The position numbers and the translations under genes are program-made. From IMG/VR virus record IMGVR_UViG_2563366867_000010: a stretch of DNA of 15,730 nucleotides. One strand, 5' to 3'. Positions 2,672-15,035 of this stretch are shown here, piece after piece (position 1 is the first letter of the stretch; every line of letters begins with the position of its first letter). The notes under the pieces were generated by a model, which was not told where the DNA came from, did no database searches, and saw only the letters and a list, made by a program, of their open reading frames with translations. This DNA is from a virus. Its lineage: Duplodnaviria > Heunggongvirae > Uroviricota > Caudoviricetes.

Positions 2672-4330
2672 TTACTGACTCAGACTGTTTCTGTTTTTCT
2701 GAAGTTGTTGCTTTGCCTGCATGATCTGCCACGACTCACTGCCTTCCGGCACCCCAGACCGGACACCATGAAGCAGGGACAGAGAAAGCGCTTCGGGGGA
2801 TTTTTCCGTCATCTTCTCTGCCCGGCTACGCCCTCTGGCAAACCGGATGAATTTGTGTCTGATGTAATTACTGACCTCCGGGGTGATTTCCATCGGAAAA
2901 CCGCTCAGCCCGTCAGGCCATTCGCCGAACTTCTCCCGGAAAGTGTGAGCGCACCATCCATCGCTGACCGGTCGCCCCAGAGAGGCACGCTGACGCTGAT
3001 AGAATTTGATCTGACTCCACCAGGCCTGTTTGTCGCTTTTGGTGTAAATTTTTTCGTCCTTGCTGAGTTTCCTGATATTGCGGCGGGTATCTGTGTTCAC
3101 ATCCTCACCAGCCAGCGGTTTAAATCCGCATTTCGGACAGACATAAACACCTGCCGGTTTCATGAAATGACACCCCGGACATTCTTTCGGCAGTTTTTCT
3201 TCCCGAATTTCGTTACCACGTGATGATGACACCTGCATCCCGTCGTTTTTGCCGGGCAGTTCGTCATACTCAATATTTTCAGGAAATCCCAGGCGATGAA
3301 CCGTACCGGAATGGTCGAAAATCAGGCATGACTCCTTGCCTGGCGCTGTACGCAATCCTCTCCCAATCGCCTGAAGCCAGCGAATCTCTGATTTTGTCGG
3401 GCGTGCGTAAATGATGCACCGGACATCACTGTCAAATCCCGCCACCAGAACGCCAACGCTGACAATGATTTTCGTCGCTCCCGTTTCAAAACGACTGATC
3501 ATTAACTGACGCTCATCATGTGGCGTTTCAGCAACCATCACCTCTGCGTTAATTCCGGCTTTGTTGAACTGCATGGTCACGAAGCTGGCATGCGTTTTAT
3601 TGACGCAGAACGCCACTGTCGGTAAATCCCTTCCGTTACACAGCCAGTTATCGACAATATCGCCAACCAGATCCGCGCCGCACATAATCTCTGCCAGTTG
3701 TGATTCGTCGTAATCCCTGCCGTACTCCATTGAGACTTTCGTTTTTACACCTTCCAGATCCGGTTTCGTGGGCGCATAAAATTCGTAATTGCTCAGTTCG
3801 CCACGCTGGATCAGTTCCCCTATAGTGGTCGGCTTGAGAAGACGCTGGTAATAACGCCCCAGGAACGATGAAAAGGGTGTACCGGACAACCCAATCACCT
3901 TCACATTTCCCTCTGCAACCAGTCGTTCGATTTCCGTGAGGATGCGGCGCTTACGGAGATGCGCTTCATCAATAATCAGCAGGTCGATATTCTGAGGAAA
4001 ATCACGGCGAATCAGCGTATCCGCACTGGAAATCTGAATCAGTCGTGACGGGTCGTTATTGGGATGAGCACGCCAGATAAAGCTGATTTCATCCCCGGAA
4101 AGCCCGTACTGAACAAAGCGCTGTGCTGTCTGGTTGATCAAAATGGTATAAGGAACGACAAACAGAACGCGCATGCCACGGCTTACCAGACCAGCAGTGA
4201 TGAACGCCGCCAGGCCGGTTTTACCACTCCCTGTAGGCATGTACATCATGAAGGACTGATATGTTTTCCAGTCATGACGCAACATATTCAGCGCACGTTC
4301 CTGAGCAAAATTCGGCTTGATATTCAGCAT
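2672..4330 (-). CDS. Superfamily-2 DEAD/DEAH-box helicase with C-terminal Cys4 zinc ribbon (probable replicative helicase of the prophage)
   Basis: Walker A MPTGSGKT, motif II IIDEAH, motif III SGT, motif VI QAIGRGLR, plus CPGCHF..(10 aa)..CPKCG. GGGAG lies 6 nt upstream of ATG 4330. Confidence 0.85.
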   Translation of the reverse strand: MLNIKPNFAQERALNMLRHDWKTYQSFMMYMPTGSGKTGLAAFITAGLVSRGMRVLFVVPYTILINQTAQRFVQYGLSGDEISFIWRAHPNNDPSRLIQISSADTLIRRDFPQNIDLLIIDEAHLRKRRILTEIERLVAEGNVKVIGLSGTPFSSFLGRYYQRLLKPTTIGELIQRGELSNYEFYAPTKPDLEGVKTKVSMEYGRDYDESQLAEIMCGADLVGDIVDNWLCNGRDLPTVAFCVNKTHASFVTMQFNKAGINAEVMVAETPHDERQLMISRFETGATKIIVSVGVLVAGFDSDVRCIIYARPTKSEIRWLQAIGRGLRTAPGKESCLIFDHSGTVHRLGFPENIEYDELPGKNDGMQVSSSRGNEIREEKLPKECPGCHFMKPAGVYVCPKCGFKPLAGEDVNTDTRRNIRKLSKDEKIYTKSDKQAWWSQIKFYQRQRASLGRPVSDGWCAHTFREKFGEWPDGLSGFPMEITPEVSNYIRHKFIRFARGRSRAEKMTEKSPEALSLSLLHGVRSGVPEGSESWQIMQAKQQLQKNRNSLSQ

Positions 4331-5497: not shown

Positions 5498-5513
5498 CTC
5501 TCACTCACTGATT

Positions 5514-5583
5514 GATACTTTAGCATCCATAAATATACAACAAATGAATCTAAAGTATCAAGAATATGTGCTACTTTAGTATC
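5514..5583. promoter_or_regulatory. Operator cluster (three 14-bp palindromic sites) with divergent promoters between the Cro-position gene and the repressor
   Basis: Sites GATACTTTAGCATC (5514..5527), GAATCTAAAGTATC (5546..5559) and GCTACTTTAGTATC (5570..5583), all variants of GATACTTTAGTATC. Candidate minus-strand promoter: -35 TTGATA (rc of 5556..5561), -10 TATATT (rc of 5532..5537), 18-nt spacer. Confidence 0.65.
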
Positions 5584-5607
5584 GACCGAAAAAACAGGAG
5601 AGATAAA

Positions 5608-6264
5608 ATGAGAACTTTGGGAGAGCGCCTTAGCAGCGCCAGGCAACGGGCAGGATTGACACAAGATGCATTAGCAAAAAAAGCCGGCATAACCCGCGTG
5701 GCTATAAGCAAAGCAGAGCAAGGACTTACTAAAAGCTTCAACGGAGATACTTTATTAAAGGTAGCCACAGCCCTAAACTGCTCTCCACAATGGCTACAAA
5801 ATGGAGAAGAACAATCTGTAAACTGGGAAAACAATGTTAAGAGTTGTCCTCAAAAAGACGCATTTCATTCCTATCCCGTTATTAACTGGGTCCAGGCCGG
5901 ACTATTCTCTACTGCTGGAGATGATTACAGCATGTATGACCATGATAACTGGAGACATTCTGTCAAATATGCAGGTGAAAGAGGTTTTTGGCTTGAAGTA
6001 CATGGTGATTCAATGACCTCGCCTGTTGGAATCACCTTTCCTGAGGGTATGTCTATTCTCGTAAACCCAGACAAAGCTGTACATTCAGGCTGTTACGTTA
6101 TCGCAAGAAAAAAATCAACCAACGAAGCAACATTCAAAAAATATGTGACTGAAATGGGAAGATCTTTCCTGAAACCACTCAATCCTCAGTATCCCATCAT
6201 TGAAATAGATGATGATTGTGAAATCGTCGGCGTGATCGTGGATGCCCGATGGGATATTTTCTAA
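5608..6264 (+). CDS. CI-like prophage repressor (N-terminal HTH_XRE + C-terminal S24 LexA-type peptidase domain)
   Basis: N-terminal HTH (LGERLSSARQRAGLTQDALAKKAGITRVAISKAEQG), Ala-Gly autocleavage context (VQAGLF), catalytic Ser in GDSM and Lys in FKKY. AGGAG lies 7 nt upstream of ATG 5608; the ORF-track start at 5566 is probably too far upstream. Confidence 0.85.
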   Translation: MRTLGERLSSARQRAGLTQDALAKKAGITRVAISKAEQGLTKSFNGDTLLKVATALNCSPQWLQNGEEQSVNWENNVKSCPQKDAFHSYPVINWVQAGLFSTAGDDYSMYDHDNWRHSVKYAGERGFWLEVHGDSMTSPVGITFPEGMSILVNPDKAVHSGCYVIARKKSTNEATFKKYVTEMGRSFLKPLNPQYPIIEIDDDCEIVGVIVDARWDIF

Positions 6265-6268
6265 GAAA

Positions 6269-6317
6269 GATACTTTAGTATCAAAAAACGCTTGCTCATG
6301 AATGATACTTTAGTTAC
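6269..6317. promoter_or_regulatory. Second operator pair (PL-like control region) downstream of the repressor gene
   Basis: Perfect palindrome GATACTTTAGTATC (6269..6282) and variant GATACTTTAGTTAC (6304..6317). Candidate plus-strand promoter: -35 TTGCTC (6292..6297), -10 TACCAT (6315..6320), overlapped by the second site. Confidence 0.6.
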
Positions 6318-6348
6318 CATGCTAAAAAGTAACTGAGGTATCATTAAT

Positions 6349-6760: not shown

Positions 6761-6952
6761 ATGAAAATGTTCAAAGGCCTCACCAACGAACCGGAAACAG
6801 CTTTTCATCACATTGCAGTACTGCTTGAAGCGGGGTTAATCATTTCGGCTTCCGGTGATGAAGAATGTGATGAACTTTCGGATGACATATTTTTACTGGC
6901 ACAACAATACGCCAGAAGCGCATGCGATGCATTTAAGGAACAAAGAACATGA
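6761..6952 (+). CDS. Small acidic protein, paralog family member 1
   Basis: 63 aa from ATG 6761, AAGGA 9 nt upstream, 1 nt after the preceding stop. Shares the SGD..D..FLL..S..C..F/Y motif with the next gene and with 7727..7921. Confidence 0.6.
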   Translation: MKMFKGLTNEPETAFHHIAVLLEAGLIISASGDEECDELSDDIFLLAQQYARSACDAFKEQRT

Positions 6953-7149
6953 AAACTCCCCTGATTATGCTTGAGGAAGTGGCAGCAGAAATAAAAGAAA
7001 ACACGTCAATGCTTGAGTTTATATTTAAAAACTCTGGTGATAACGGAGAGACAGATGATTTCTTACTTTGTATGATTCGTTCCATGAATAAAACCTGTGA
7101 AAAGGCTTACGAGTATGTTGATGCTCTGAGAACGAATAAAGGAAATTAA
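6949..7149 (+). CDS. Small acidic protein, paralog family member 2
   Basis: 66 aa. Its start overlaps the preceding stop (ATGA). Motif LEFIFKNSGDNGETDDFLLCMIRSMNKTCEKAYEY aligns with member 3 (LLQVIIDSGDIGSPDALNMMNCLFRSLSCTADKAEKH). Confidence 0.6.
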   Translation: MKTPLIMLEEVAAEIKENTSMLEFIFKNSGDNGETDDFLLCMIRSMNKTCEKAYEYVDALRTNKGN

Positions 7150-7726: not shown

Positions 7727-7921
7727 ATGAATAATTGCGTTGAAGTACTCGATAATGTCCACTGCGAGATAACAGAAAGCCTGTCTTTGTTACAGGTGAT
7801 TATTGACAGCGGTGATATTGGTTCACCAGATGCGCTAAACATGATGAATTGTCTTTTCCGCTCATTATCCTGTACAGCAGACAAAGCAGAAAAGCATCTG
7901 TGCCGGACTGAAAACGAATAA
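7727..7921 (+). CDS. Small acidic protein, paralog family member 3
   Basis: 64 aa with GGAG 10 nt upstream. Aligns by eye with 6761..6952 and 6949..7149. Confidence 0.6.
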   Translation: MNNCVEVLDNVHCEITESLSLLQVIIDSGDIGSPDALNMMNCLFRSLSCTADKAEKHLCRTENE

Positions 7922-9245: not shown

Positions 9246-10115
9246 ATGATGAAAAAATCAACTGAACTTGTGCCGGTGGCAGCCCGTGATTTGCAAATTA
9301 TCGAATATCGCGGTCAACGCGTTGTGACCACTGAACAACTGGCGGCAGGTTATGGAGCAACACCAATCCGTATTCGCCAGAATCATTCCCGAAACGAAGA
9401 ACGATTCGTTGTTGGAAAGCATTATTTTTTGCTGGAAGGCGATGAACTACGTGAACTTAAGCACAGAGTATCTCAAAGCTACTCTGTGAAAATTGCCAGC
9501 AATGTTCGATCCCTCATCCTCTGGACCGAACGCGGCGCAGCCAACCACGCAAAATTGCTGGAAACGGATCAGGCGTGGAACTATCACGAAGACCTTGTGG
9601 AGTTCTACTTCACTCAGCGGGAAAACATCGATGTTCAGCGCGTACTCACTCGCAAGGAACTCGCGTTGATGGTTATTGAGGCCGAAGAACGGGCTGAAGC
9701 TATGGCCCTGGAAAATAAAACGCTCTCTGCAACCGTAGACAGTCTGGAAAAACATTTCTCTAAAGGCATGACTGTTCCCCAGTTCTGCCGTGCGCTGAAC
9801 GGCGTAAATACCAGCCAGATAATGTGGTGGCTGTCTGGCCGAAAATGGGTATTCAACGAACAACGCGATCCGGAGAAAACACCCCGCTGGCGCACGGCCT
9901 CTTATGCCCGTGACAGATACCTGACCGAAGAAGCAGTACAGATCACTCCACACGGGAAAGCAACATTCACGAAATTCACCCCCGTATTGCTGGAAAAAGG
10001 ATGCCACCGTTTATACCAGTTTTACATGAACGGTGAACTCCCTATGAAGAAAAACTGGAACGGTGAATTTAAACACGACAAAGCTATTTACACACCGGAG
10101 GCAGAACATGAATAG
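9246..10115 (+). CDS. ORF6N/KilA-N-type DNA-binding domain protein, antirepressor-like
   Basis: N-terminal LQIIEYRGQRVVTTEQLAAGYGATPIRIRQNHSRNEERFVVGKHYFLLEGDELRELK looks like the ORF6N domain found at the N-terminus of phage antirepressors, recalled from memory. The central region looks coiled-coil (EAEERAEAMALENKTLSATVDSLEK). Confidence 0.6.
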   Translation: MMKKSTELVPVAARDLQIIEYRGQRVVTTEQLAAGYGATPIRIRQNHSRNEERFVVGKHYFLLEGDELRELKHRVSQSYSVKIASNVRSLILWTERGAANHAKLLETDQAWNYHEDLVEFYFTQRENIDVQRVLTRKELALMVIEAEERAEAMALENKTLSATVDSLEKHFSKGMTVPQFCRALNGVNTSQIMWWLSGRKWVFNEQRDPEKTPRWRTASYARDRYLTEEAVQITPHGKATFTKFTPVLLEKGCHRLYQFYMNGELPMKKNWNGEFKHDKAIYTPEAEHE

Positions 10116-10470
10116 CACTACTGCGGCAATCATGAACTACGACCCGAACATGACATTATGCGGCCGCATGGCAAGACAGACGGTTCGTCTGACACTCGGG
10201 CAATGGGAGTACCGCGAAACATTTGAAGTGGACGTTGTCGGCAATCTGACGGGGCTGGATGTAATAACCTGCGCAATTGAAAACCTTTATGAAGAGCTGC
10301 CGTATGAAGAAGCACAGGATGAATATACCGGTGAAACTAACATTATGGCCACAATACAGATCGGTGATCTTGCATGTACGGATGAGGACATGCTCGGCGA
10401 AGCATGGCTGGCAGGTATGCTTATTGCAGCAGAAATTATCAGCATTGAACCAGCAGGAACACTTTCATAA
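10108..10470 (+). CDS. Hypothetical acidic protein
   Basis: 120 aa from ATG 10108 with GGAGG 8 nt upstream. Overlaps the preceding stop by 8 bp. Confidence 0.55.
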   Translation: MNSTTAAIMNYDPNMTLCGRMARQTVRLTLGQWEYRETFEVDVVGNLTGLDVITCAIENLYEELPYEEAQDEYTGETNIMATIQIGDLACTDEDMLGEAWLAGMLIAAEIISIEPAGTLS

Positions 10471-10486
10471 CGGAGATCGCCATCAG

Positions 10487-10711
10487 ATGATTATTTCATT
10501 CACCGATTACGGCGAACAGGCAAAACTGATTATCACCAGTTCCCGCCTGACATTGCGAAAACATAATCGTGTCGTTGATGCGGTACTTCTGTGCACGCCG
10601 GACATCACAGAAAGCCGGAGCGGCTTTTTCCTGGTTAAGTCGTCATTATCAGGAAAAACACGCGACATCCTGCGCGCCTACAAAACAGCAACAAGGGAGT
10701 CTGAACGATGA
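10487..10711 (+). CDS. Hypothetical small protein
   Basis: 74 aa from ATG 10487 with GGAG 11 nt upstream. Its stop overlaps the next start (ATGA). Confidence 0.5.
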   Translation: MIISFTDYGEQAKLIITSSRLTLRKHNRVVDAVLLCTPDITESRSGFFLVKSSLSGKTRDILRAYKTATRESER

Positions 10712-11070
10712 AAGAAGCTGATCTGAAAGCACTGCGTGACGCCGCACAAAATACCGTATATGGAGACAAGGGATGTGATCTGGAAGCATTTCACTCCCTT
10801 GCCACTCCGCCAGTTATCCTTGCGCTAATCAGTCACATAGAAAATCTGGAGAAAAAACTGGATGAAATCGTAACGTCAGAGATTAGCCCGAAGGCCTGGC
10901 TGAATAACCTTACGGGGGAAGTTTGCAGTATTGATGCCATGCCTGACGCCCGTAATGACAGAGAAACATACACCCCGCTTTATCCTGCCTGGCAGCGCAT
11001 TGCCGCCGCAGATGATAACGGCAGAGTGGCATGGATGTATACGCACAAAAAAGCAGGTTACAGGGTCTAA
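10708..11070 (+). CDS. 5' fragment of an early-left phage gene interrupted by IS4 (possibly Ea22-like; truncated 120-aa product)
   Basis: AGGGAG 8 nt upstream of ATG 10708. The reading frame runs into the IS4 left end, whose first three bases (TAA, 11068..11070) supply the stop codon. The same frame resumes immediately after the right target duplication. Confidence 0.6.
   Translation: MKEADLKALRDAAQNTVYGDKGCDLEAFHSLATPPVILALISHIENLEKKLDEIVTSEISPKAWLNNLTGEVCSIDAMPDARNDRETYTPLYPAWQRIAAADDNGRVAWMYTHKKAGYRV
11056..11067. repeat. Target-site duplication, left copy (GGTTACAGGGTC)
   Basis: An identical 12-mer flanks the IS4 on the other side at 12494..12505. Confidence 0.85.
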
Positions 11071-12493
11071 TGCCAGTCAGTTAAGCAACTGACTGGCTCT
11101 TTTTCGGGGCTGTGGGGTATTTCCAGGGCCTCTCCTTTACCACTCTCGGGAAGGCCCTTTCCCTTCTTGTCGGTAATTTCACAAGTTGTCCCATACTTGC
11201 AAGATCGCGCATCAGCTCCGGTATACGTCCCGGTGAAGCGCCCTGCAATGTCATCAGCATTCTCATCACCATTCCGCATGATTCTGAGAAACTCAGTTGA
11301 TTCGGCCAGTAACCTTTCAGATGTTCCGCCATTTTAATCATCTGATATCTCACCAGATTATAAGCCAGTAAGACACCCCACAGCTCTTGCTCCACAAGCT
11401 CCGGCTTTTTACTTCTCAGCGTCAGCCTGCTCCGTTGCATCGTCTGTTTTATCTCCCTGTATCCCAGTTCGATTTCCCAGCGATGACTGTACAGATCCCC
11501 CATTTCTCCTCCGGGGAAGCGCATGGCGTCCGTCATCGACGTCAGCAGATGGCAGACTTTTCCTTTGCGCGTCACGGTCAGCAGGCGGGCAGTCACTTCA
11601 TTTCCCAGTCCCGGCCACTTTTTTCGTGCCTGCGGGCTGGTTTTCAGCTTCACCAGATGATCGCCTTTACCCAGTTTTCTGATCTCTTCATATTGCGCTC
11701 CCTTTCTGAGAGGTATCATCCAGTGGCGGTGTTCTCCCGCCAGGCTCCAGGCATTTAACAGTCCCAGTGAGTAATAACCTTTATCCATTAACGTCAGAGT
11801 GTTATCGCCGGTTTGTTCTATAAGTTGCTCAGCAAGCTCATTTTCGCTGTTCTTCATCGTGCCGAAGGCTGCAGCCGTCAGCAGATGGCTGGTCAGTTCC
11901 ATCTGGCAGACCATTTTGACCTGCGGGTAGAGCGCCGGGTTCCCGGCATGTGTCTGGCGGGGGAAGGCTGCATCGTTCTCTGGTGTATCCGGTGTGCGCC
12001 AGAACACACCATCGATGGCCAGCAGGGTCAGGCCGCACCAGTGCGGATGCGGCGTGGCGTTATGCCAGAGCTGCGCTGTTTTCGTGAACACGCGGCGGAC
12101 AGCCTCACTTCCCAGGCGCTGGCGGGCCTGAATAACGGCACTGGGGGCAACGAAGGGGCGATTGCCCGGCAGCATGATGTCCAGGCGATTCACAATCTGG
12201 TGAAGAGGTTCTTTACGCTCAAGCGCCATGCCAACAATACACCAGACCATCATTTCGAGGGGAAGACGGCGCTTGCGTAGCGTTACAGTACCTGATTCGG
12301 CAAGGCAACGAGAGATGAGTTCGGGGTCGAGGTAATCCCCCAGAGAAGTCAGTGGGTTACGCAGAGAATCGTAACGGGATACCAGATCAAGAGCCTGTCC
12401 AATGTGCATAAAAAAATCCGGAAACAAGTGAGCGTTTCCGGATTCTTACACAGCCACTGGATCGGTCAACTGATCCTTAACTGATCGGCATTA
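11068..12493. mobile_element. Insertion sequence IS4, complete copy (1426 bp)
   Basis: Terminal inverted repeats TAATGCCAGTCAGTTAAG (11068..11085) and rc TAATGCCGATCAGTTAAG (12476..12493). A single transposase ORF fills the element. Flanked by a 12-bp direct repeat. Confidence 0.9.
11081..12409 (-). CDS. insG: IS4 transposase (DDE, IS4 family)
   Basis: 442-aa translation beginning [40 protein letters not shown].. matches the IS4 transposase as I recall it. The ORF-track start at 12427 is a TTG; the true ATG is at 12409. Confidence 0.9.
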
Positions 12494-12511: not shown

Positions 12512-13048
12512 ATGACATCGTGGGAAAGTCTTGCAGAAGAGCGGGGAGGCTCTCTGGATAAATATATCGTCAGTCCACTATTCACTGTTCCTCAGATACC
12601 GCCAGTGAGAACAGAACAGGATGCTTACCCTGATGTGCAGGTTTCATGGGATGCAACACGTCACTATGTCAACGGCTGGAACGCCTGCCGACAGGCAATG
12701 CTGACGACGGCAGAAAAAGTACTTGATGTGCGAATCCCTGAATATATCGGACGCTGGCTTTCCGCTGCACTTCATGATCAGAACTCATGCGAGGAAATGA
12801 AAAACGATATACGACGCTTCCTGGCTGAATACCACCATGTTCCATCGAAATATAACGGCTGGCGACTTGTACCGGACAAGTTAACCGAACAGATGAAGTA
12901 CCGGATTGTGCCACTACTGGCGACCATCAAGCCCCGCAGCGTCGATGAATATGACCGCTCAGGAGAAAACGCACAATTTCTTGAATGGGTATGGACGCAA
13001 CTGATGGAAGCCACGAAATTCGCGTATGAGGGCTCAGTGAATGGGTGA
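12512..13048 (+). CDS. 3' fragment of the IS4-interrupted early-left gene (178-aa ORF from an internal ATG)
   Basis: After conceptual removal of IS4 and one duplication copy, this ORF is in frame with 10708..11067 (..KKAGYRV-PT-MTSWESLAEE..). Whether the internal ATG 12512 is used is unknown. Confidence 0.55.
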   Translation: MTSWESLAEERGGSLDKYIVSPLFTVPQIPPVRTEQDAYPDVQVSWDATRHYVNGWNACRQAMLTTAEKVLDVRIPEYIGRWLSAALHDQNSCEEMKNDIRRFLAEYHHVPSKYNGWRLVPDKLTEQMKYRIVPLLATIKPRSVDEYDRSGENAQFLEWVWTQLMEATKFAYEGSVNG

Positions 13049-13457: not shown

Positions 13458-13712
13458 ATGGAAACAATCATCTATCAGATAACGCCCAGCAAATGGTGCA
13501 CAGAAAGAACCCTTATTGCTGCAACTGGACTGAAATCAGGAACCATTGCCAGAGCAAGAAAAAAATCCTGGTTACTGGGGAAAGAATACCGTCATTACGC
13601 AGCAGAAGGAGAGCCCGGGCCTTTCAGTGAATGTGTATACAACATTGAGGAAATTATGCGCTGGATCGAAAACCAGAAACAACCAGGTGCCAAAAATGCA
13701 AGTTCCGGTTAA
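13458..13712 (+). CDS. xis: Excisionase-like protein (lambda Xis-type winged helix)
   Basis: 84 aa immediately upstream of the integrase. The pattern ITPSKWCTERTLIAATGLKSGTIARARKK..GKEYRH parallels lambda Xis (LTLQEWNARQRRPRSLETVRRWVRE..GREYLF). Confidence 0.7.
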   Translation: METIIYQITPSKWCTERTLIAATGLKSGTIARARKKSWLLGKEYRHYAAEGEPGPFSECVYNIEEIMRWIENQKQPGAKNASSG

Positions 13713-13745
13713 CCTGTTAATGCTCCTGGACGTCTGGGAGGTTTA

Positions 13746-15035
13746 ATGAGTAACGCATCATACCCGACAGGCGTTGAAAACCATGGCGGATCACTCCGCA
13801 TATGGTTTCACTATAACGGCAAACGTGTCAGAGAAAACCTCGGTGTTCCTGACACCGCCAAAAACCGGAAGATCGCAGGTGAACTTCGCACTTCCGTTTG
13901 TTTTGCAATAAGAATGGGGAGCTTCGACTACGCCGCGCAGTTCCCTAATTCCCCTAACCTGAAACATTTTGGTCTGGGAAAAAAAGAGATAACCATTAAG
14001 GCACTTTCGGAAAAATGGCTTGAGCTTAAGAAAATGGAAATAACAACAAATGCCATGGTCAGATACAAATCAGCTATCCGAAATTGCCTTGACTGCCTTG
14101 GAGGGAACAAACTGGCATCATCAATTACACAGGAAGATGTTCTCATTTTTCGTAAAGAATTATTAACGGGATATCAGTTGCCAAGAAAAATTCAGAGGAA
14201 GCCTATTAAAGGTCGTAGTGTACCTACTGTAAATAGCTATATGACAATTATCTCCGGGATGTTCCGTTTTGCGGCAAACAATGGGTATATAGGCAAAAAC
14301 CCTTTCAGTGAGCTTCCATCACTGAAAAGAGCGAAAACACCTCCCGATCCACTAACAAAAGATGAGTTTGCCAGACTGATTGATGCGTGCCACCACCAGC
14401 AAACTAAAAATTTCTGGTCGCTGGCTGTATATACCGGGATGCGGCATGGCGAACTGTGTGGGCTGGCATGGGAGGATATCGATCTGGAAGCGGGTACCTT
14501 GACCGTCAAAAGGAATTACACTCAGACAAAGGAATTTACACTACCCAAAACAGATGCAGGAACAAACAGGGTAATACAACTCATACAGCCAGCAATTGAC
14601 GTATTAAAAAATCAGGCGACATTAACCAGGCTTGGTAAACAATATCAGATAGAAGTAAAGCTGCGAGAGTATGGCCGGACAAGCACTCACTCATGCAGCT
14701 TTGTTTTCAATCCTCAGATATTAGATCGCACAGGTAACTCAGGAGTTCATTATGCCGTAACATCCATCAACAGAACATGGGAATCTGCATTAAAACGAGC
14801 AAAAATTCGCCATAGAAAAGCGTATCAGTCTCGGCATACTTATGCTTGCTGGGCTTTAACTGCCGGAGCAAATCCAAACTTCATAGCCAACCAGATGGGA
14901 CATGCGAATGCCCAGATGGTTTACAATGTTTACGGTGCATGGATGAAAGACAATAACCAGTCCCAGGTAGAAGTACTAAACAGAAAGCTATGTACTTATG
15001 TCCCACAGGTGCCCCAACGACTAAACAAAGCATAG
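13746..15035 (+). CDS. int: Tyrosine recombinase / phage integrase (lambda Int family)
   Basis: 429 aa with GGAGG upstream. C-terminal catalytic-domain signatures: R in YTGMRHGELCGLAWEDID, H..R in SRHTYACWALTAGANP, GHANAQMVYNVYGAWM with the presumed catalytic Tyr. Lies next to xis at the prophage end. Confidence 0.9.
   Translation: MSNASYPTGVENHGGSLRIWFHYNGKRVRENLGVPDTAKNRKIAGELRTSVCFAIRMGSFDYAAQFPNSPNLKHFGLGKKEITIKALSEKWLELKKMEITTNAMVRYKSAIRNCLDCLGGNKLASSITQEDVLIFRKELLTGYQLPRKIQRKPIKGRSVPTVNSYMTIISGMFRFAANNGYIGKNPFSELPSLKRAKTPPDPLTKDEFARLIDACHHQQTKNFWSLAVYTGMRHGELCGLAWEDIDLEAGTLTVKRNYTQTKEFTLPKTDAGTNRVIQLIQPAIDVLKNQATLTRLGKQYQIEVKLREYGRTSTHSCSFVFNPQILDRTGNSGVHYAVTSINRTWESALKRAKIRHRKAYQSRHTYACWALTAGANPNFIANQMGHANAQMVYNVYGAWMKDNNQSQVEVLNRKLCTYVPQVPQRLNKA

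What the first reader, a model, noticed from the sequence alone, without database searches (positions are those of the whole stretch)
9246..10711. ORF6N/KilA-N-type protein plus two downstream ORFans as a candidate accessory module
The 289-aa protein has an ORF6N-type N-terminal DNA-binding domain, as in antirepressors and some KilA-N-domain abortive-infection proteins, followed by a coiled coil. It is translationally linked to two small unknown genes (10108..10470 acidic, 10487..10711). Modules of this shape in the early-left arm can be antirepressors that respond to a second signal or defence/anti-defence cargo. Function cannot be assigned from sequence.
Basis: partly seen in the sequence, partly recalled or inferred. 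Interest (0 to 1): 0.45.

Follow-up and report, generated by a model that had tools for sequence, protein, structure and literature searches.

The report
Ordinary prophage ORF6N-KilAC early gene cluster
This is a routine member of a large, domain-swapping family of phage "antirepressor-like" DNA-binding proteins. It sits in the repressor-controlled early operon of an E. coli lambda-like prophage, next to two small, separately inherited phage genes of unknown function, and the three do not form a special module.

Summary
The three genes exist at the stated coordinates. The 289-aa protein has a clear ORF6N domain (Pfam E 1e-22).

That makes the protein a standard two-domain member of the "Bro network" of phage regulators. 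The coiled coil is only a low-confidence long helix.

The two small genes are not ORFans:
- One is DUF5406 (PF17400), very acidic at pI 4.05.
- The other is PHROG 1001, with a basic product.

All three lie about 2.9 kb downstream of the CI-controlled pL/OL, in the lambda exo-xis-equivalent region. I found no promoter or LexA box of their own.

Comparative genomics shows a conserved positional slot rather than a three-gene module. The order is: Bro-network protein (ORF6N or Bro-N), then a variable gene, then the 74-aa gene, then xis/int. Each gene also occurs without the others.

The most likely role is a post-derepression early regulator or host modulator, like AriS, Phi11 Gp07 and P1 KilA. 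It is unlikely to be a signal-responsive induction trigger. Support for a defence role is limited to N-domain similarity to PDC-S05.

Verdict: ordinary, a new member of a known kind, low interest.

The parts
5566..6264 (+). CI-type immunity repressor (HTH_3 + complete Peptidase_S24 domain)
   Evidence: Pfam HTH_3 E 4e-14 and Peptidase_S24 E 1e-22, profile positions 1-116 of 116. It is 33% identical to lambda CI over 229 aa, E 4e-38.
6268..6348 (+). OL operators (three copies of the GATACTTTAGTATC-type palindrome) and the inferred pL promoter driving the + strand operon that contains the finding
   Evidence: Repeat families D1/D2 and I3/I10/I11 link these sites to the three OR copies at 5513-5583. 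The promoter position is inferred, not shown.
9246..10115 (+). ORF1, 289 aa (probably 288 aa from ATG 9249): a Bro-network protein made of an ORF6N domain, a long helix and a divergent KilAC/ANT domain
   Evidence: RefSeq WP_000749823.1 'ORF6N domain-containing protein' in a 99.8% identical prophage.
9294..9554 (+). ORF6N domain (residues 17-103)
   Evidence: Pfam PF10543, E 1.2e-22, 80.5 bits against GA 27.8. AF2 pLDDT is 66-86 across this region.
9651..9758 (+).
   Evidence: AF2 secondary structure H136-171, but pLDDT is about 36-41. Heptad check is weak.
9765..10022 (+). Divergent KilAC/ANT-like domain (residues ~174-259)
   Evidence: Pfam ANT E 0.013, 16.2 bits, below GA 25.3. 43 of 82 close homologues hit ANT. 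P0021 (76% id) scores 26.8 bits, above GA. 39 of 150 remote relatives of this region hit ANT at E<=1e-3.
10108..10470 (+). ORF2, 120 aa, DUF5406 family, very acidic (pI 4.05)
10487..10711 (+). ORF3, 74 aa, phrog_1001 family, basic (pI 9.9), function unknown
   Evidence: phrog_1001 E 1e-30. No Pfam, NCBIfam, PADLOC or PDB-profile hit. Conserved at ~74 aa in 75 loci.
10708..11070 (+). N-terminal part of an Ea22-like 300-aa gene (phrog_24401), cut by IS4
   Evidence: phrog_24401 positions 1-120 of 300. The N-terminus matches lambda Ea22, E 1e-7. The gene is intact in L001.
11068..12492 (-). IS4 insertion (transposase 11081-12427) with a ~12-13 bp target duplication, GGTTACAGGGTC
   Evidence: Colinearity break against L001. 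Pfam Nterm_IS4 and DDE_Tnp_1.
12512..13048 (+). C-terminal part of the same Ea22-like gene
   Evidence: phrog_24401 positions 123-300 of 300.
13458..15035 (+). xis (13458-13712) and int (13746-15035), the end of the early-left arm, next to rcsB
   Evidence: Pfam DUF1233 excisionase E 2e-27. RefSeq annotation of the 99.8% identical prophage.

Best explanation
ORF1 is a two-domain 'Bro-network' phage early protein. It has an N-terminal ORF6N DNA-binding domain, a helical linker and a C-terminal divergent KilAC/ANT domain.

It is transcribed with its neighbours from the CI-repressed pL promoter, so it is made only after CI has been inactivated or during infection.

By analogy with characterised KilAC proteins, the N-domain probably binds phage DNA and tunes early or late gene expression. 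The KilAC domain probably acts on a protein partner. Candidates are the host SOS machinery/RecA, the division apparatus, or a CI-type repressor. The effect would be to reinforce or pace the lytic switch rather than to trigger it.

DUF5406 (acidic) and the 74-aa basic protein are separate, co-transcribed early genes of unknown function. They occupy the lambda exo-xis-equivalent 'non-essential' region and are not obligate partners of ORF1.

Shown: domain content, operon position, operators, synteny and independent assortment. Inferred: DNA binding, the protein target, and timing of expression.
For: Domain content:
- ORF6N at E 1e-22. Full-length match to PHROG 63 'anti-repressor Ant'.
- The C-domain is a KilAC subfamily: 43 of 82 homologues hit ANT and P0021 is above GA.
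- The 150 best of 191 remote relatives carry this domain behind pRha (52), Bro-N (23), KilA-N (9), ORF6N (6), AntA (5) or P22_AR_N (1). 39 of them hit ANT. This is the domain swapping described for the Bro network (PMC10111431).

Operon position:
- Three OL sites lie at 6268-6348, directly after cI, and all genes run co-directionally and tightly packed to xis/int.
- There is no LexA box above chance, no + strand promoter-like site before 9246 and no Rfam element.
- CI has a complete S24 domain, so SOS induction needs no antirepressor.

Published function of KilAC domains:
- Listeria AriS: KilAC damps SOS, probably via RecA, and the N-domain regulates phage genes after induction (PMC9043618).
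- Phi11 Gp07: the KilAC part causes growth arrest and filamentation in E. coli (PMC5944126).
- CreP, a KilAC-only protein: blocks division, with a weak FtsZ co-IP (bioRxiv 10.1101/2024.01.05.574328).
- Phi24B Ant speeds late-gene expression after induction (PMC3064807).

Independence of the neighbours.
Against: - No experiment exists on this subfamily.
- The window copy's ANT score is below Pfam's threshold.
- hhalign against Phi11 Gp07 found nothing.
- The AF2 model of ORF1 is poor (pLDDT 54), so the C-domain fold is unverified. The fold search was uninformative.
- The characterised KilAC proteins are from distant hosts or have other N-domains, so transfer of function is weak.
- pL is inferred from the operators. 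Internal promoters cannot be excluded by a consensus scan.
- The recurrent order Bro-network gene, small gene, 74-aa gene (64 of 79 loci) could still reflect a functional link.
Confidence: 0.55

Rival explanations
1. ORF1 is a classical antirepressor. It binds CI-type repressors, either its own or those of heteroimmune co-resident prophages, and so triggers or spreads induction.
For: - The family-level annotation is 'anti-repressor' (PHROGs 63, 1760, 2379 and others).
- Orthologues are annotated as antirepressor in Cronobacter phage ENT39118 and Escherichia phages Fostie and SaltyDalty.
- KilAC and AntA domains occur in P1 Ant, as cited in PMC9043618.
- Phi24B Ant assists derepression after induction (PMC3064807).
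- The same ORF1 allele (99-100%) sits next to two different immunity types, cI 99% versus 46%. That fits a broad-range, trans-acting factor.
Against: - ORF1 lies inside the CI-repressed operon without its own promoter or LexA box, so it cannot start induction of its own prophage.
- CI is self-cleavable.
- The label is transferred annotation. No tested antirepressor shares detectable sequence similarity with ORF1 in the PDB.
- Phi24B Ant is a different gene in the pR operon, with a P22_AR_C-type C-terminus (PMC3064807).
Confidence: 0.25
2. The three genes form a functional cassette. Either a toxic KilAC protein has small modulators, or a regulator sits beside interchangeable anti-defence effectors, with DUF5406 as an acidic DNA-mimic-type inhibitor.
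For: - The recurrent order Bro-network gene (33 ORF6N, 31 Bro-N), then variable gene (C12, C15, C21, DUF5406 or none), then the 74-aa gene is seen in 64 of 79 non-identical loci.
- In L128, DUF5406 directly follows a pRha-type Bro-network gene, and the stop and start share one base.
- The ORF1/ORF2 overlap is 8 nt.
- DUF5406 has a net charge of -17.5. It occurs in early regions of lambdoid, Mu-like and jumbo phages and on Yersinia plasmids.
- KilAC proteins are toxic when overexpressed (PMC5944126; bioRxiv 2024.01.05.574328).
Against: - All of these loci are related lambdoid prophages sharing int/xis, so the order can be inherited synteny.
- In Stx2a phage LC727869 the ORF6N gene and the 74-aa homologue are four genes apart.
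- 15 of 79 loci have the 74-aa gene without a Bro-network gene nearby.
- phiP27-type prophages have DUF5406 after an unrelated 275-aa gene.
- There are no PADLOC hits for ORF2 or ORF3.
- The DUF5406 fold has no characterised match.
Confidence: 0.1
3. ORF1 is a prophage-encoded defence or abortive-infection protein of the PDC-S05 / KilA-N-Abi type.
For: - PADLOC PDC-S05 models hit ORF1 residues 8-169 at E 6e-11 to 2e-5.
- One PDC-S05 representative reduced plating of T7, T5 and T4 (bioRxiv 10.1101/2024.09.26.614923).
Against: - The similarity is confined to the shared N-terminal region.
- The Virulence_RhuM domain reported for the tested PDC-S05 representative is absent, as is KilA-N.
- The gene is repressed in the lysogen (pL/OL), the wrong expression state for a prophage defence gene.
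Confidence: 0.05

Closest known systems
AriS of Listeria phage phi10403S and AriS-like proteins (PMC9043618)
   Same: [quoted passage not shown]
- Encoded by a temperate phage, annotated 'antirepressor', and about 260-290 aa long.
   Different: - The N-domain here is ORF6N, not AntA/AntB, Bro-N or pRha.
- The KilAC domain is divergent, below the Pfam cut-off in this copy.
- The host is Gram-negative.
- SOS inhibition is untested.
Staphylococcus phage Phi11 Gp07 (Bro-N + KilAC) and phage P1 KilA (KilA-N + KilAC)
   Same: - Same domain logic: a Bro-network N-domain plus KilAC.
- An early gene next to the immunity region. Phi11 gp07 is followed directly by a 74-aa hypothetical gene, phi11_08.
   Different: - Gp07 matches ANT at E 1e-32, whereas ORF1 matches at E 0.013.
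- No direct similarity by hhalign.
- The filamentation and killing phenotypes are untested here.
[quoted passage not shown] 2002 as cited in PMC9043618 and in bioRxiv 2024.01.05.574328)
   Same: - ORF1 carries two of the listed domains.
- Relatives of its C-domain carry five of the other listed N-domains.
- The same genomic slot holds ORF6N- or Bro-N-type proteins in sister prophages.
   Different: - Nothing categorical. This is a specific, uncharacterised ORF6N + divergent-KilAC subfamily found across several genera of Enterobacteriaceae.
Phi24B / phage 2851 Ant (PMC3064807) and P22 Ant
   Same: - Lambdoid-phage 'antirepressor'-annotated proteins made only after derepression.
- Proposed to accelerate the lytic switch.
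   Different: - A different gene position: the pR operon before qut.
- A different C-terminal domain (P22_AR_C type).
- No shown homology to the ORF1 C-domain.
Lambda exo-xis region (orf60a, orf63, orf61, ea22, ea8.5; PMC3824215)
   Same: - Same position in the pL operon, just upstream of an Ea22-like gene and xis/int.
- Small, conserved, non-essential genes of unknown function.
   Different: - Only the Ea22-like N-terminus is detectably homologous.
- ORF1, DUF5406 and the 74-aa gene have no lambda counterpart.

Membership tests
ORF6N domain family (Pfam PF10543) | Match to the family HMM above the curated gathering score | tested here: met
   80.5 bits against 27.8, E 1.2e-22, residues 17-103. 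All 82 homologues also match.
KilA-N domain family (Pfam PF04383) | Match to the KilA-N HMM | tested here: not met
   No KilA-N hit for ORF1 at E<=0.1. KilA-N appears only as an alternative N-domain in 9 of 150 relatives of the C-domain.
ANT / KilAC domain family (Pfam PF03374) | Match to the family HMM above the gathering score (25.3 bits) | tested here: inconclusive
   The window copy scores 16.2 bits, E 0.013. The 76% identical homologue P0021 scores 26.8 bits over profile positions 11-105 of 108, and three others score 24.8-25.1. 43 of 82 homologues hit at E<=0.05. 39 of 150 remote relatives hit at E<=1e-3, best 1.3e-9. hhalign against Phi11 Gp07 was negative, and the AF2 model was too poor to test the fold.
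Bro network (domain-swapping phage DNA-interactive proteins) | The same domain is found fused to alternative partner domains of the network | tested here: met
   Relatives of ORF1 residues 126-289 carry pRha (52), Bro-N (23), KilA-N (9), ORF6N (6), AntA (5) or P22_AR_N (1). In sister prophages the slot holds ORF6N- or Bro-N-type proteins that share another C-terminal domain.
Functional antirepressor (P22 Ant, P1 Ant, N15 AntC, Gifsy type) | Binds and inactivates the immunity repressor | not testable with these tools
   Needs binding or induction assays. There is no sequence relative among solved antirepressor structures.
Functional antirepressor acting as an induction trigger | Own regulated promoter (LexA box or secondary immunity control) independent of the main repressor. 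This criterion comes from my own knowledge of N15 AntC, Gifsy and P22 immI. | tested here: not met
   CTGT-N8-ACAG has no exact match, and one-mismatch matches are at chance level (6 observed, 5.2 expected). No + strand promoter-like site lies between 7076 and 9246. The gap before ORF1 is 20 bp. OL/pL lies 2.9 kb upstream.
AriS-like dual-function regulators | N-terminal phage regulatory domain plus C-terminal KilAC domain that inhibits SOS | tested here: inconclusive
   The architecture is met, with the KilAC caveats above. The SOS-inhibition activity is not testable here (PMC9043618).
PDC-S05 defence candidate (PADLOC) | Virulence_RhuM domain (reported for the one tested representative) and a full-length match to the models | tested here: not met
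   The hits cover only ORF1 residues 8-169, the N-terminal region. There is no RhuM hit in Pfam. The domain description comes from bioRxiv 10.1101/2024.09.26.614923.
DUF5406 (Pfam PF17400), for ORF2 | Match above the gathering score | tested here: met
   72.6 bits against 25, E 4e-20, profile positions 1-116 of 116. RefSeq names the orthologue 'DUF5406 family protein'.
ORFan status of ORF2 and ORF3 | No detectable homologues outside close relatives | tested here: not met
   ORF2 has relatives in Halomonas, Pseudomonas jumbo, Mu-like and Yersinia-plasmid contexts. ORF3 matches phrog_1001, with 141 IMG/VR loci, 101 phage records and 31 plasmids.
Conserved three-gene module | The three genes co-occur and stay adjacent across unrelated backgrounds | tested here: not met
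   The triple occurs only in near-identical prophages. Each gene occurs without the others.

The most novel reading that the evidence does not exclude
The slot Bro-network protein, hypervariable small gene, 74-aa basic protein, conserved just upstream of Ea22/xis/int in many enterobacterial lambdoid prophages, could be a diversification hotspot for host-takeover or anti-defence effectors. The middle gene would be an interchangeable effector. Here it is the highly acidic DUF5406; elsewhere it is a weakly beta-clamp-like 188-aa protein, among others. DUF5406 might act as a DNA-mimic-type inhibitor. The Bro-network protein and the 74-aa protein would be the constant regulatory partners.
Probability: 0.1. 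Interest if true: 0.5.

Novelty: new member of a known kind. Interest (0 to 1): 0.2.

Why it matters
It matters little beyond annotation.

The protein is already in RefSeq as 'ORF6N domain-containing protein', and its kind, the Bro-network 'antirepressor-like' proteins, is well described though poorly understood.

The useful outcomes are corrections:
- The protein also carries a divergent KilAC domain.
- It is under CI/pL control, so it cannot be an induction trigger.
- The neighbours belong to recognised families and are not a module.

If someone wants to study KilAC function in E. coli (SOS damping, division block or antirepression), this subfamily is a convenient lambdoid example. DUF5406 is a reasonable candidate to include in anti-defence screens.

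Tried and rejected
1. Sequence and profile searches of ORF1, DUF5406 and the 74-aa protein against PDB sequences found nothing meaningful.
2. The AF2 model of ORF1, built on 82 homologues of at least 71% identity, was poor (pLDDT 54). Foldseek against the PDB gave no hit at E<=0.001. The only suggestive match was the winged-helix-like Dachshund domain (E 1.4), which I did not use.
4. hhalign of the ORF1 family against Phi11 Gp07 was negative. The alignment was shallow, Neff 1.5.
5. The genome-contig scan with ORF1 returned only one partial Actinobacillus hit.
6. There were no LexA-box, promoter/terminator or Rfam signals specific to the region.
7. Antisense ORFs within 9246-10711 and the 144-aa TTG ORF have no support of their own. 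The latter only contains the 74-aa gene.
8. NCBIfam gave no names for any of the three proteins. PADLOC gave none for ORF2 or ORF3.
9. Homology of the small genes to the lambda exo-xis genes was tested and not found, apart from the Ea22-like gene.
10. A full-text search found no paper mentioning DUF5406.
Full report
**Context**

The window is the immunity and early region of an E. coli lambdoid prophage integrated beside rcsB. The finding's 1466 bases are 99.4-99.8% identical to seven complete E. coli chromosomes. Only 31 of 5426 genomes have any match.

In NZ_CP116067 the gene order is identical. RefSeq calls the three genes 'ORF6N domain-containing protein', 'DUF5406 family protein' and 'hypothetical protein'. 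They are followed by a 300-aa hypothetical gene, small genes, xis, int and rcsB.

The + strand of the window corresponds to lambda's leftward arm.
- cI (5566-6264) has HTH_3 and a complete Peptidase_S24 domain. It is 33% identical to lambda CI.
- A 14-bp palindrome, GATACTTTAGTATC, occurs three times between cI and the divergent cro-like gene (OR, 5513-5583). It occurs three more times immediately after the cI stop codon (OL, 6268-6348).
- pL is therefore inferred at about 6290-6345. It would drive a tightly packed + strand operon running from 6349 to int.

**Checking the observation**

ORF1:
- It matches Pfam ORF6N at E 1.2e-22. It does not match KilA-N.
- Its likelier start is the second ATG at 9249. 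That start has 7-nt spacing from GAGG and gives 288 aa, as in RefSeq and the database clusters.
- The 'coiled coil' is a single long helix (residues 136-171) in a low-confidence AF2 model. Its heptad pattern is unconvincing.
Residues ~174-259 match Pfam ANT (KilAC) weakly, E 0.013 and 16.2 bits against a cut-off of 25.3.
- That weak match is real at family level. 43 of 82 close homologues hit ANT. One 76% identical homologue passes the curated threshold over nearly the whole profile.

An exhaustive HMMER search with residues 126-289 found 191 cluster representatives. Of the best 150, 39 hit ANT at E<=1e-3. Their N-terminal domains are:

| N-terminal domain | Number of relatives |
|---|---|
| pRha | 52 |
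| Bro-N | 23 |
| KilA-N | 9 |
| ORF6N | 6 |
| AntA | 5 |
| P22_AR_N | 1 |

ORF1 is thus a textbook member of the domain-swapping 'Bro network' (PMC10111431). PHROGs agrees: phrog_63 'anti-repressor Ant' matches over the full length.

ORF2:
- It is DUF5406, Pfam E 4e-20 and phrog_3409.
- It is very acidic: pI 4.05, net charge -17.5.
- Its AF2 model is good (pLDDT 83), an alpha/beta fold.

ORF3:
- It is phrog_1001 and basic, pI 9.9.
- It is conserved at 74 aa in dozens of loci.
- It has no Pfam, NCBIfam, PADLOC or PDB-profile hit.

Neither small gene is an ORFan.

The junctions:
- The 8-nt overlap between ORF1 and ORF2 and the ATGA overlap between ORF3 and the next gene are real.
- The same packing holds along the whole operon.
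- Antisense ORFs have no family support, and no Rfam family matches.

**Is it a module?**

I collected loci around relatives of each gene from IMG/VR, phage, plasmid and metagenome records. I then mapped the window's early-left proteins onto them.

In 79 non-identical loci that carry the 74-aa gene, the order is conserved:
1. p120a-like gene.
2. Small genes.
3. p154-like gene.
4. p257-like gene.
5. A Bro-network protein.
6. A variable gene.
7. The 74-aa gene.
8. Small genes.
9. xis and int.

The Bro-network slot:
- It is filled by an ORF6N-type protein in 33 loci and a Bro-N-type protein in 31. In 15 loci there is none.
- Most of these proteins do not carry KilAC. They carry a different, Pfam-unannotated C-terminal domain with a 'RWxHPxxGxF' tail.
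- That domain is shared by ORF6N-, Bro-N- and pRha-type proteins.

The middle gene:
- In the 64 loci with a Bro-network gene it is C12 (188 aa, 27 loci), C15 (14 loci), C21 (9 loci) or C63 (1 locus).
- In 13 loci no middle gene was called. At least four of these, the window-type loci L001, L007, L009 and L011, actually carry DUF5406. My ORF caller hid it under an overlapping TTG ORF.

DUF5406 also occurs without any ORF6N gene:
- In phiP27-type prophages, after an unrelated 275-aa gene.
- In a Mu-like element and a high-GC prophage.
- In Halomonas phage phiHAP-1 and Pseudomonas jumbo phages.
- On Yersinia plasmids.
- In one lineage it directly follows a pRha-type Bro-network gene.

Other evidence against a fixed module:
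- In Stx2a phage LC727869 the ORF6N gene and a 74-aa-domain gene are four genes apart.
- ORF1 orthologues in Cronobacter phage ENT39118 and in L055-L058 are followed by other genes.
- The three genes co-occur only in near-identical prophages.

What is conserved is a positional slot in one phage lineage, as is usual for lambdoid mosaics.

The gene after ORF3 is Ea22-like. Its N-terminus matches lambda Ea22 at E 1e-7. This places the cluster in the equivalent of lambda's exo-xis region (PMC3824215).

**Mechanism**

ORF1-3 lie 2.9 kb inside the CI-repressed pL operon.
- There is no promoter-like site in front of them.
- There is no LexA box.
- The upstream gap is only 20 bp.
- CI itself is SOS-cleavable.

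ORF1 therefore cannot be the trigger of its own prophage's induction, and nothing suggests a 'second signal'.

The experimentally studied KilAC proteins point to host- or process-directed roles after derepression:
- AriS: the KilAC domain damps SOS, probably via RecA, and the N-domain tunes phage transcription (PMC9043618).
- Phi11 Gp07: the KilAC half arrests growth and filaments E. coli (PMC5944126).
- CreP, a KilAC-only protein: blocks division, with a weak FtsZ co-IP (bioRxiv 10.1101/2024.01.05.574328).
- Phi24B Ant, a different Bro-network protein: accelerates late expression after induction (PMC3064807).

I therefore favour the following for ORF1, at confidence about 0.55. It is an early, pL-expressed two-domain regulator or host modulator. 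Its ORF6N domain binds DNA, and its KilAC domain engages a protein partner to pace or reinforce the lytic switch.

A true repressor-binding antirepressor remains possible, at about 0.25. It would act as feed-forward or in trans on co-resident prophages. The same ORF1 allele beside heteroimmune cI genes (46% identical) is compatible with that.

A defence role is unlikely, at about 0.05.
- The PADLOC PDC-S05 hits cover only the N-terminal region.
- The Virulence_RhuM domain reported for the one tested PDC-S05 representative is absent.
- The gene is repressed in the lysogen.

A functional cassette with DUF5406 and the 74-aa protein is not excluded, at about 0.1, but it has no positive evidence beyond synteny.

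**Verdict**

The feature is an ordinary, already-annotated member of a known family. It sits in its usual kind of place, flanked by two uncharacterised but recognised phage gene families. Interest is low.

Noticed in passing
window 11068-12492 (transposase 11081-12427, - strand): An IS4 element (Nterm_IS4 + DDE_Tnp_1) is inserted in the Ea22-like 300-aa gene, with a ~12-13 bp target duplication (GGTTACAGGGTC). It lies between the pL-proximal genes and xis, so it may be polar on pL-driven xis expression and impair excision.
   Followed up: partly
window 5513-5583 and 6268-6348: The operator sets OR and OL each have three copies of a 14-bp palindrome, GATACTTTAGTATC. OL starts 4 bp after the cI stop codon, so there is no rex-like gene between cI and pL.
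   Followed up: partly
window 6949-7149 and 7727-7921: Two small early-left genes (66 and 64 aa) are paralogues, 36% identical with pairwise E 1e-8. They have no family annotation.
   Followed up: partly
L007-L010 vs L011 (IMG/VR), cI at ~506-1186: The same ORF1/DUF5406/74-aa alleles (99-100% identical) occur next to two different immunity repressors (cI 99% or 46% identical). This shows recombination between the immunity region and the rest of the early-left arm.
   Followed up: no
L091:3835-4590, L052:3608-4441, L128:3159-4001: A second C-terminal domain without Pfam annotation (tail motif RWxHPxxGxF) is shared by ORF6N-, Bro-N- and pRha-type proteins in the same genomic slot (pairwise E 1e-7 and 1e-51). 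It is probably an undescribed Bro-network domain.
   Followed up: partly
L066:4438-5004 (cluster C12, 27 loci): The commonest gene between the Bro-network gene and the 74-aa gene is a 188-aa protein with a weak hit to the DNA polymerase III beta (sliding clamp) central domain (E 0.002, below threshold).
   Followed up: no
L066:2384-2605 (cluster C5, 42 loci): A 73-aa ParE-like toxin-domain protein (Pfam E 2e-20) is a regular member of the early-left operon in related prophages. It is absent from this window.
   Followed up: no
L140 (Stx2a phage LC727869) 1991-4734: The Stx2a phage carries an ORF6N protein (225 aa, different C-terminus). Four genes downstream there is a 126-aa protein whose C-terminal half is the 74-aa domain. 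A probable DNA methyltransferase (DPPW motif) lies between them.
   Followed up: no
L139 (Yersinia pseudotuberculosis p_153kb) 3501-3854: A DUF5406 homologue (38% identical) sits on a large plasmid with MPF_I typing, among hypothetical genes, a DUF2786 gene and an HNH endonuclease. DUF5406 is therefore not restricted to phages.
   Followed up: no
L001 6965-10888 (NZ_CP116067 prophage, outside the window): The near-identical complete prophage carries a type I restriction-modification pair (HsdM, HsdS) and a frameshifted hok/gef gene between Q and the lysis genes.
   Followed up: no
L136 (phage Phi11) 4427-5476: Phi11 gp07 (Bro-N + KilAC) is followed immediately by a 74-aa hypothetical gene, phi11_08. 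This echoes the arrangement 'Bro-network gene then small gene'. I did not test it for homology to ORF3.
   Followed up: no
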